Positions 49,001-54,132 of a DNA stretch of 64,000 nucleotides are shown one piece after another. The translations under genes were made by a program, and so were the position numbers. The DNA is from Octopus vulgaris (Eukaryota), in NCBI GenBank assembly GCA_951406725.2, contig OX597815.1, positions 16,368,001 to 16,432,000 on the forward strand, in the 5' to 3' direction. Each line of letters starts with the position of its first letter. Within the stretch, counting starts at the first letter, position 1. The notes below the pieces were generated by a model. That model was not told the DNA's origin. It did not search any database and saw only the letters and a list, made by a program, of their open reading frames with translations.

Positions 49001-49294
49001 CTTGAATACGACAATTTATAACAATAATTAATTTTCATAACTAATGATTTTTTTCTAACAATAAATAAAAAAATAAATAAATGGTATGTAGAATAAAAAA
49101 AAGATATAAATTCCGAGAACTAGCATTTTAAATTTTCAAGCCATAATAGACGCATGTGGGACTGTGTGGTTTAAACATGTGGTCTTGGTTCTCTTCCTCT
49201 GCGGGGCACCTTGGGCAAGTGTCTTCTATTTATCCCGGGCTGACCAAAGCCTTGTGAATGGATTTGCAGGACGAAAACTGAAAGAAGCCCGTTG

Positions 49295-49361
<67 letters not shown>

Positions 49362-49630
49362 ATAATGTATATATATCTGTGTTTGTTTTTCTTTGAGATC
49401 GTGCTATGTTTATCTCGCGTCACAGCTTTCCAGCCGAGGTTATTTTTTACGTTCGGCAAAACAGACCGATAGAATAAGTACCAGGTTTTAAAAATTAGTA
49501 CTGGGAGCTGATTTGTTCGACTAAACCCTTCAAGGTGGTGCCCAGCATGGCCGCAGTTCAATGGCTATAACAAGTAAAAGATAAAAGATTTCCAGTTGTG
49601 TGTGTGTGCGCGTGTGTGTGTGTATGTATG

Positions 49631-49694
<64 letters not shown>

Positions 49695-49777
49695 GGTCCC
49701 GGGTTGATTCGGGGTTAACCACAGTAAGTAAGGTACTCAATACATAGCAGAGTAAAATTAATTTATTATATAGAAGG

Positions 49778-49828
49778 AGCTTCTACAGGACTAGTACTGT
49801 TTCATTCAAGAGAAATCTTCAGGAAGCT
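49778..49828 (-). ncRNA. Type I hammerhead ribozyme, exact inverted copy, sense to eyegone pre-mRNA
   Basis: Exact reverse complement of 49899-49949. Confidence 0.85.
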
Positions 49829-49898
49829 ATTTAACAAGAATTGTATTAGCATTTAAACCTGCCTAAATGTATAAATGCTAATACAATTCTTGTTAAAT

Positions 49899-49949
49899 AG
49901 CTTCCTGAAGATTTCTCTTGAATGAAACAGTACTAGTCCTGTAGAAGCT
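49899..49949 (+). ncRNA. Type I hammerhead ribozyme, intact core
   Basis: Stem I AGCUUC/GAAGCU; CUGAAGA at 49905-49911; short stem II UUC/GAA; GAAA at 49924-49927; stem III ACAG/CUGU enclosing the palindrome ACUAGU; GUA cleavage triplet at 49941-49943. Confidence 0.85.
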
Positions 49950-49960
49950 CCTTCTATATA

Positions 49961-50008
<48 letters not shown>

Positions 50009-50331
50009 CTAATATAGGATAGAATTTTTCGAAAAAATTTCTATCCATGGCCAGCATATTAAAAAATACCTTTAAAGGTTAAATTTATAAATAACTTATA
50101 AGTGAGGGCAAAAGAAACGGATTTCATTTAGAAATTTCTGTCGGCATTCTTTGAAACACATGCTTGTAGTGATAAATTACATGGATATTGACGTAGTGTC
50201 TTTTTTCGGCATGTTTAGGCATTAGAAATTTTTTCTTTTGCCCTTACTTATAAATTATATATTCAATATTGCAAAATTGTAAAAATTACAATTAATAAGA
50301 CGTGAAAACAGACTTAGTTGGAATTTCTTTG

Positions 50332-50540
<209 letters not shown>

Positions 50541-50630
50541 GAGACAAAACCACTATTATGCAAATCAAACAAAGAAAGACTTAATCCAATACATAAAAAA
50601 TTTTATATAAATTAAATAAAATTAAGTTAT

Positions 50631-50676
50631 CCACTACAATTGTTTCTTGTCACTTCTAAGGACATTCATCGGGTGG
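50631..50676 (-). ncRNA. Minimal type I hammerhead motif with variant core (CCGAUGA)
   Basis: Minus strand CCAC-CCGAUGA-a-UGUC..GACA-a-GAA-ACAAUUGU-A-GUGG: stems I and II, palindromic stem III, GUA triplet, U4>C change. Confidence 0.72.
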
Positions 50677-50806
50677 TTTTCACACCTTCTATTCAATTAT
50701 TGTTGTAGAGATAGATTGTGGTTGAAATGTGTTTATGTAAGGAACCAAGAATTCAATGGCATGATGAAAGAACGAAAGAAGACAAATTCTTTGATTGGTC
50801 ACTCAC

Positions 50807-51210: not shown

Positions 51211-51634
51211 CTGTTTCTTTACTGCCCACAAGGGGCTAAAAACATAGAGGGGACGAACAATGACAGATAAACGGATTAAGTCGATTACATCGACCCCCAG
51301 TGCGTAACTGGTACTTAATTTATCGACCCCGAAAGGATGAAAGGCAAAGTCGACCTCGGCGGAATTTGAACTCAGAACGTAACGGCAGACGAAATACCTA
51401 TTTCTTTACTACCCACAAGGGGCTAAACATAGAGGGGACAAACAAGGACAGACAAACGGATTAAGTCGATTACATTGATCCCCAGTGCGTAACTGGTACT
51501 TAATTTATCGACCACGAAAGGATGAAAGGCAAAGTCGACCTCGGTGGAATTTGAACTCAGAACGTAACGGCAGACAAAATACGGCTACGCATTTCGCCCG
51601 GCGTGCTAACGCTTCTGCCAGCTCGATCGCCGCC
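51211..51634 (-). mobile_element. SINE family B dimer; other copies at 21180-21581 (-), 24003-24228 (+), 43231-43461 (+), 19705-20330 (+, interrupted), 22455-22680, 28209-28412 and 46480-47050
   Basis: Shared GGCGGCGAGCTGGCAGAA head and GCCTTTCATCCTTTCGGGGTCGAT core. Confidence 0.88.
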
Positions 51635-53350: not shown

Positions 53351-54132
53351 GGCAGCGAGTTGGCAGAAACGTTAGCACGCCGGACGAAATGTTTAGCGGT
53401 ATTTCGTCTGTCTTTACGTTCTAAGTTCAAATTCCGCCGAAGTCGACTTTGCCTTTCATCCTTTCGGGGTCGATAAATTAAGTGCCAGTTGCGCACTGGG
53501 GTCGATGTAATCGACTTAATCCGTTTGTCTGTCCTTGTTTGTCCCCTCTATGTTTAGCCCCTAGTGGGTAATAAAGAAATAGGTATTTCGTCTGTCTTTA
53601 CGTTCTAAGTTCAAATTCCGCTGAGGTTGACTTTGCCTTTCATCCTTTCGGGATCGATAAATTAAGTACCAGTTACGCACTGGGGTCGATGTAATCGACT
53701 TAATCTGTTTGTCTGTCCTTGTTTGTCCTCTCTGTGTTTAGCCCCTTGTGGGTAATAAAGAAATAGGTATTTCGTCTGTCTTTACGTTCTAAGTTCAAAT
53801 TCCGCTGAGGTTGACTTTGCCTTTCATCCTTTCGGGGTCGATAAATTAAGTACCAGTTACGCACTGGGGTCGATGTAATCGACTTAATCCGTTTGTCTGT
53901 CCTTGTTTGTCCTCTCTGTGTTTAGCCCCTTGTGGGTAATAAAGAAATAGGTATTTCGTCTGTCGTTACGTTCTGAGTTCAAATTCCGCCGAGGTCGACT
54001 TTGCCTTTCATCCTTTCGGGGTCGATAAATTAAGTACCAGTTACGCAATGGGGTCGATGTAATCGATTTAATCCCGTTGTCTGTCCTTGTGTGTCCCCTC
54101 TATGTTTAGCCCCTTGTGGGCAATAAAGAAAT
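53351..54132 (+). mobile_element. SINE family B concatemer: one head plus four 184-bp bodies
   Basis: Units start at 53398, 53582, 53766 and 53950. AAGAATAGATTAA occurs on both sides (53331-53343, 54133-54145). Confidence 0.92.

What the first reader, a model, noticed from the sequence alone, without database searches (positions are those of the whole stretch)
49692..49966. Self-masked hammerhead: ribozyme and its perfect antisense in a 95-bp hairpin inside an eyegone intron
Seen: an intact-core hammerhead duplicated in exact inverted orientation (95-bp arms, 16-nt loop), flanked by (TA)n, in the 1.8-kb intron between the paired-domain and homeodomain exons. On either strand the antisense copy is transcribed first, so the hairpin should trap the ribozyme as it emerges. 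Inference: this would protect the pre-mRNA from cleavage. The long perfect duplex is also an ADAR/Dicer substrate, so A-to-I editing (extensive in coleoids) could in principle loosen the hairpin or alter the core, making cleavage conditional.
Basis: partly seen in the sequence, partly recalled or inferred. Interest (0 to 1): 0.75.

Follow-up and report, generated by a model that had tools for sequence, protein, structure and literature searches.

The report
Penelope retrotransposon stump, not ribozyme switch
The mirror-image ribozyme in this octopus-type eye-gene intron is real, but it is the clipped end of a young jumping gene that has left well over a thousand such hairpins in the same genome, so the masking is likely a by-product of how it inserts rather than a switch on the gene.

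Summary
Observation confirmed: exact 95-bp arms, 16-nt loop, intact hammerhead core on each strand, (TA)n flanks, inside a 1,806-nt intron of an eyegone-type gene that RNA contigs show spliced. It is a truncated head-to-head insertion of a young Hydra-clade Penelope-like retrotransposon (PLE): the same arm plus 69-nt one-sided tail runs into a reverse-transcriptase/GIY-YIG ORF elsewhere. The genome holds 5,891 exact core matches and 1,448 tight plus 297 wider short inverted pairs. This layout is in print for PLEs, and this scan noted the same kind on other DNA. Folding supports masking (85.8 kcal/mol), but not an ADAR switch: with all 34 antisense adenosines unpairable 27.7 kcal/mol remain, and heavy editing hits the core. 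Published PLE hammerheads cleave poorly alone. Likely mechanism: two separately primed cDNAs joined at a 4-nt microhomology (tail on one arm in 62 of 63 pairs; either arm may be longer). Ordinary; interest 0.15.

The parts
49692..49760 (-). 69-nt PLE tail, on the left arm only; in full elements it continues into the ORF region
   Evidence: 98.6-100% identity to the tail of 20 of 20 fetched copies; leads into the ORF in L051/L105
49761..49855 (-). Left arm: truncated pLTR end, hammerhead in sense to the host pre-mRNA
49778..49828 (-). Type I hammerhead motif, GUA cut site after 49784; stem I 6 bp, stem II 3 bp under a U.U pair, stem III 4 bp with 8-nt loop
   Evidence: same architecture as Hydra-clade hammerheads in File S2 of PMC8557442
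49852..49855 (.). 4-nt microhomology where the two arms are joined (6 nt if the older subfamily is taken as template)
   Evidence: comparison with native upstream sequence of long copies
49856..49871 (+). 16-nt loop = native pLTR sequence kept only by the right arm
49870..49875 (+). TATA box of the pLTR, 29 nt before the first base of the + strand hammerhead (promoter role inferred)
   Evidence: same spacing in 52 of 57 hammerhead copies examined
49872..49966 (+). Right arm, no tail; hammerhead at 49899-49949, cut site after 49943
49623..49691 (.). (TA)n target, left flank
49967..50001 (.). (TA)n target, right flank; no target-site duplication can be read
49001..50806 (-). Host intron (1,806 nt) of an eyegone-type Pax gene, between the last paired-domain exon and the first homeodomain exon

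Best explanation
The 275-bp insert is the doubly truncated, head-to-head end of a young Hydra-clade Penelope-like retrotransposon sitting in a (TA)n tract, likely made by joining two separately primed cDNAs, and its ribozyme is predicted to be buried in the host pre-mRNA as a likely neutral by-product. Shown: identity with a 5,193-bp element encoding an RT and GIY-YIG-type endonuclease; thousands of copies; inverted pairing as the usual layout; tail on one arm only; a 4-nt microhomology at the joint. Inferred: the endonuclease nicks both strands of (TA)n; reverse transcription starts at two sites 69 nt apart on uncleaved element RNA (both lie 3' of the GUA site); both cDNAs stop early and anneal by their 3' ends. 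Most sister hairpins stop at the first base of the hammerhead, 29 nt below a TATA box, likely the RNA's 5' end; this copy read 27 and about 47 nt past that point, so its template was likely a longer, read-through RNA. The intron is spliced out and the ribozyme likely never folds.
For: Arm 100% identical over 95 nt in at least one arm of 19 of 20 fetched long or medium pairs. Arm+tail continue into ORF pieces of 506 and 225 aa with DKT, YRDDG, CxCX5C, YIG, CxxC and CxH motifs, matching the Hydra definition; 1,462 homologs, mostly about 700 aa, two of five scanned hit RVT_1 or GIY-YIG. Counts in own genome, reversed-pattern controls all 0: 1,991 and 5,891 cores; 297 and 1,448 short inverted pairs. 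Tail on exactly one arm in 62 of 63 pairs (64 loci given). Longer arm is the tail-less one in 17 and the tailed one in 10 of 27 resolvable pairs (36 tied or unresolved), which simple snap-back of one tail-first cDNA does not predict. Same or adjacent joint in 4 other loci whose two arms share subfamily letters: made anew each time. Layout described in PMC8557442, PMC3846280, PMC4209133; two RT start sites and use of uncleaved RNA in PMC11167929.
Against: No contig of 8 runs spans this locus, so presence, fixation or polymorphism in other animals is untested. Cleavage was not measured; this motif has a longer stem III than the minimal hammerheads that were inactive in PMC4209133, so it could be more active alone. 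The two-cDNA step and the start-site reading rest on sequence patterns, and my pair searches only see pairs with exact cores. PMC3846280 explains such junctions by self-priming on an antisense template, which I cannot exclude. Pfam gave no RT or GIY-YIG hit on the element's own ORF pieces. The clade call rests on motifs, not a tree; RWK reads RWR here.
Confidence: 0.9

Rival explanations
1. One reading: a protective, ADAR-gated ribozyme switch. Editing loosens the hairpin and frees the hammerhead to cut eyegone pre-mRNA.
For: The duplex is perfect and long enough for ADAR and Dicer (established knowledge, recalled); masking is predicted. Unchecked scan notes report ADAR-type A-to-G marks in other octopus PLE hairpins.
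Against:: unedited cost 85.8 kcal/mol; all 34 antisense A made unpairable 27.7; random editing at 10, 25, 50% gave minima 60.6, 45.5, 21.2 over 60 trials each, with the five core adenosines intact in 40, 13 and 2 of 60. Copy is identical to the youngest subfamily and one of well over a thousand. The isolated motif forms stem II with probability about 0.1.
Confidence: 0.02
2. Passive tolerance: the hammerhead can harm host transcripts, and masked inverted copies are the ones that survive in introns.
For: Masking is predicted for any short pair. The three fixed differences between two subfamilies fall on N7, loop II and loop III (26 copies), as expected if the motif is under selection in the element. 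A preprint reports mild depletion of retrozymes from Xenopus introns (passages).
Against: Inverted pairs are the default genome-wide, so no selection is needed to explain this one; PLE hammerheads are weak or protein-assisted. No gene annotation was available to test orientation bias.
Confidence: 0.1
3. A non-autonomous hairpin family (MITE- or retrozyme-like) that moves as a 275-bp unit.
For: The same loop joint recurs in L002-L004 and L006.
Against: In each copy the two arms share that copy's subfamily letters; the joint uses either of two adjacent sites; L006 has the tail on the other side. No tandem monomers as in retrozymes. Only 1 of 30 loci carrying the loop 20-mer (the window's own) was this fold-back.
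Confidence: 0.04
4. Assembly or library fold-back artefact.
For: Perfect palindrome between microsatellites; no contig bridges it.
Against: The flanks are not mirrored and the tail is one-sided; diverged, imperfect versions exist at other loci; contigs of 4 public DNA-type runs from 3 studies show fold-back joints of this family (table 5).
Confidence: 0.03

Closest known systems
Hydra-clade Penelope-like elements (Craig et al. 2021, PMC8557442; includes Hydra-1_Obim from Octopus bimaculoides)
   Same: C-terminal endonuclease, DKT, CxCX5C linker, CxxC/CxH, (TA)n targets, hammerhead near the 3' end, often with U.U closing stem II; inverted 5'-truncated copy and one-sided tail as described for PLEs
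   Different: Other hammerhead sequence than Hydra-1_Obim and three motifs absent from the held, cut supplement, so probably another family; unit 5.2 kb with a long microsatellite-rich 3' region versus under 3 kb; tail 69 nt versus 30-40
Opposite-strand dual minimal hammerheads of PLE remnants (Cervera and De la Pena 2014, PMC4209133)
   Same: Two hammerheads about 100-700 bp apart on opposite strands, read as truncated PLEs
   Different: Here stem III is 4 bp with an 8-nt loop; masking of the ribozyme is not discussed in the two parts of four that I read
Poseidon PAc of Anolis (Frangieh et al. 2024, PMC11167929)
   Same: Tail lies between two RT start sites; AT-rich targets; both strands nicked and extended; uncleaved RNA is the template
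   Different: Other clade; there the hammerhead overlaps the start codon and was shown to need the protein; untested here
Adineta vaga Penelope inverted pLTRs (Arkhipova et al. 2013, PMC3846280)
   Same: Head-to-head pLTRs, optional tail, TATA in the pLTR, microhomology joints
   Different: Explained there by self-priming on an antisense template; my arm-length data fit two primers better
L1 twin priming (recalled, not read)
   Same: Two cDNAs primed from opposite target strands and joined by microhomology
   Different: In L1 it inverts a non-overlapping part; here both cDNAs copy the same end, giving a palindrome

Membership tests
Penelope-like element (EN+) | RT plus C-terminal GIY-YIG endonuclease in the parent element | tested here: met
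   ORF pieces with YRDDG and YIG motifs; homologs hit RVT_1 (E 9e-6, under cut-off) and GIY-YIG (E 1e-5); no Pfam hit on the pieces themselves
Penelope-like element (EN+) | pLTR-ORF-pLTR partial tandems | tested here: met
   cores 5,193 bp apart in tandem around the ORF in L105 and L051
Penelope-like element (EN+) | Inverted 5'-truncated copy and tail on one end | tested here: met
   72 of 100 cores in diverging pairs; one-sided tail 62 of 63
Penelope-like element (EN+) | Hammerhead in the pLTR | tested here: met
Hydra clade | DKT in place of DKG; CxCX5C linker; CxxC and CxH; no CxC domain at the N-terminus | tested here: met
   read
Hydra clade | N-terminal RWK motif | tested here: inconclusive
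   reads RWR
Hydra clade | (TA)n insertion preference | tested here: met
   TA-rich run directly after the tail-less arm and after the tail in the copies printed
Hydra clade | Placement in the RT tree | not tested
   reference proteins were not available as tool sequences
Type I hammerhead ribozyme | CUGANGA, GAAA, NUH and three helices | tested here: met
   stem II only 3 bp, predicted about 10% formed
Type I hammerhead ribozyme | G10.1-C11.1 pair | tested here: not met
   U.U here, as in many Hydra-clade motifs of File S2
Type I hammerhead ribozyme | Self-cleavage | not testable with these tools
   needs an assay
Non-LTR retrozyme | Tandem monomers of a few hundred bases without ORF | tested here: not met
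   same-strand neighbours within 15 kb were 3 of 40 close pairs; the tandem unit examined is 5.2 kb and coding
eyegone (host gene) | Truncated PAI, intact RED, paired-type homeodomain | tested here: inconclusive
   only PAX positions 63-108 and 106-125 match; relatives named Eyegone 2 of 22; no tree, upstream exons not read

The most novel reading that the evidence does not exclude
Head-to-head insertion is a built-in safety catch: the Hydra hammerhead can cut host pre-mRNA, each paired insertion silences its own ribozyme, and so thousands of live ribozymes persist in cephalopod introns; the TATA box left in this loop could fire an unmasked, self-cutting antisense RNA across the eyegone intron.
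Probability: 0.1. Interest if true: 0.55.

Novelty: new member of a known kind. Interest (0 to 1): 0.15.

Why it matters
As a gene-regulatory device it most likely does not matter. As a population it is a usable record of PLE mechanism, which PMC8557442 calls unresolved: well over a thousand young pairs with a one-sided tail, either arm longer, and ends piled 29 nt below a TATA box give a testable two-primer model and a predicted RNA start. The family is also a large source of perfect intronic double-stranded RNA in an animal group known for heavy editing (recalled).

Tried and rejected
Rfam: no hit at gathering; weak hits are generic hairpin models. Loop 20-mer as a marker of this joint: 185 hits, but 29 of 30 fetched loci were not this fold-back; the motif is native to an older subfamily, so that count was not used. 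Pfam on the element ORF: nothing relevant. Sequencing runs: no RNA holder on record; contigs only; none spans the locus; no A-to-G differences listed in the three probable RNA runs, which contigs cannot show reliably; empty-site test failed because repeats are skipped. DNA record of editing: none of 80 pairs had more than 2 mismatches of one G.T or A.C kind, but exact-core selection excludes hyper-edited copies, so this is no evidence against the earlier notes. A-to-G proxy for inosine understates destabilisation and was replaced by unpairable bases. Atlas search gave only PAX; 45 loci given, 7 without a strict pair, 3 duplicates dropped, tail one-sided in 34 of 35. Literature: octopus+Penelope+hammerhead 5 papers, 4 listed; ADAR+hammerhead+intron 16, 15 listed, no natural ADAR-gated intronic hammerhead evident from titles and abstract starts; twin priming+Penelope+inverted 2, listing only. 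The library lacks most subscription papers; Repbase and Dfam were not searched.

Full report
Observation. The window is G000:C2:16368001-16432000 of a 2.8-Gb genome. The arms 49761-49855 and 49872-49966 are exact reverse complements with a 16-nt loop; each carries a 51-nt type I hammerhead with intact boxes and a GUA site. (TA)n flanks both sides. The gene is on the minus strand, with PAX and homeodomain exons; contigs of two probable RNA runs join the exons, fixing the intron at 50806->49001. Eyegone is likely: 2 of 22 relatives bear that name, most are called Pax-6-like, only the RED half of PAX matches here, and molluscan eyegone genes are mislabelled Pax-6 in databases (PMC5333810, passages; PMC4901127, passages). 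Octopus is my inference from the sequence style and the closest relative (Argonauta, 72%), not a given.

What it is. The exact 33-nt core pattern occurs 1,991 times, a degenerate one 5,891 times, reversed controls 0. Of the first 100 listed cores, 72 lie in diverging pairs 4 nt to 10 kb apart. In 20 fetched pairs at least one arm is 100% identical over 95 nt in 19, and the 69-nt stretch 49692-49760 follows one arm. In L051 and L105 arm and tail run on into an ORF in two pieces (506 and 225 aa), in a tandem unit of 5,193 bp. The protein has DKT, YRDDG, CxCX5C, YIG, CxxC and CxH, the marks of Hydra-clade PLEs (PMC8557442: section 11 read whole, passages, one part of the supplement), with RWR for RWK. 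It has 1,462 relatives among 7,996 scored; of five scanned, one hits RVT_1 and one GIY-YIG. The listed octopus family Hydra-1_Obim has a different hammerhead, and three motifs of ours were not found in the held, cut supplement, so this is probably another family; the part of the supplement not held could change that.

How common the self-masked form is. Short inverted pairs with both stem-I strands whole and a spacer up to 150 nt: 297. Pairs with cores 2-12 nt apart: 1,448. The two sets overlap only at a 12-nt gap. The layout is in print: inverted 5'-truncated copy and one-sided tail (PMC8557442; PMC3846280, passages), and opposite-strand hammerhead pairs 100-700 bp apart (PMC4209133, parts 1-2 of 4). 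Earlier notes of this scan describe the same kind in other genomes and elsewhere in this one; a search by sequence and by place found none for this copy.

How it likely forms. Against native upstream sequence, the right arm continues through the loop and the left arm stops 16 nt short; they overlap by 4 nt at 49852-49855. The tail is on one arm in 62 of 63 pairs (64 given); the tail-less arm is longer in 17 and the tailed in 10 of 27 resolvable pairs. In this copy the loop belongs to the tail-less arm, which one tail-first cDNA folding back on itself cannot produce, whereas two cDNAs whose 3' ends anneal can (inference). This fits the in vitro finding that a PLE nicks and extends both strands, starts at two sites that bound the tail, and uses uncleaved RNA (PMC11167929, parts 1-2 of 4). 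The same or next joint recurs at L002-L004 and L006 with subfamily letters shared by both arms, so it is a hot spot, not a mobile unit. A TATA box lies 29 nt above the first hammerhead base in 52 of 57 copies (not independent: both ends of some elements), and 57 of 98 arms in 49 loci end at that base (the search cannot see shorter arms). I saw the pile-up; reading it as the RNA start came from note e1-9501726 and was then partly tested. Self-priming on an antisense template, proposed in PMC3846280, remains open.

Masking is predicted: all hammerhead pairs at probability 0 for 6 prefix lengths, 85.8 kcal/mol to force the fold. Editing does not release it in the model: 27.7 kcal/mol remain with all 34 antisense A unpairable; random editing of both arms at 10, 25 and 50% gave means of 77.0, 61.1 and 39.2, with the five core A intact in 40, 13 and 2 of 60 trials. 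These are equilibrium energies without proteins. Whether there is anything to mask is doubtful: stem II is about 10% formed in the isolated motif, single minimal PLE hammerheads showed no cleavage and the Anolis one needs its protein. Against that, our motif has a fuller stem III, and the three fixed subfamily differences in 26 copies (27 examined, 1 skipped) avoid the core and stems. ADAR may well edit this RNA, as unchecked notes suggest for sister hairpins, but editing is not switching. One twist: the + arm keeps the TATA box (49870-49875), so an RNA started there would carry an unmasked hammerhead antisense to the gene; untested.

Artefact. Flanks are not mirrored, diverged versions exist, and contigs of four other runs show fold-back joints of the family. 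No contig spans this locus, so it is not confirmed in other animals.

Verdict. Real, correctly described, and ordinary: a stump of a young Hydra-clade PLE. New member of a known kind; interest 0.15. The bolder reading, selection for masked copies in introns (a preprint reports mild intron depletion of retrozymes in Xenopus, 10.64898/2026.07.22.740005, passages; its supplements were not seen), has about 0.1 probability and is testable with an annotation.

Noticed in passing
G000, matches; L051:3686-5838, L105: Many of the most similar young ORF copies share one frame break between the RT and endonuclease parts (open frame 225 aa), while a few have open frames of 680-722 aa. A shared defective lineage, a frameshift signal or a systematic assembly error are all possible. 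24,730 candidates, 150 scored.
   Followed up: no
L051:3223-3414: A small hairpin of the same family sits inside the TA tract of a full-length copy's own 3' region: the element inserts into itself.
   Followed up: partly
loci: Many joints carry short extra letters that repeat nearby sequence, resembling templated insertions of microhomology-mediated end joining.
   Followed up: no
L046 (C1:32138900-32146600): A near-perfect 6.7-kb palindrome (97.9%) of this family with almost no spacer.
   Followed up: no
window 49426-49590 and 50017-50290: Two other very high-copy repeats flank the hairpin in the same intron (summed contig depth).
   Followed up: no
window 51214-51582 and 53398-54133: 184-185-bp tandem repeats of one family in opposite orientations in the upstream intron.
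   Followed up: no
window 27700-27807: Degenerate telomere-like repeat inside the chromosome arm.
   Followed up: no
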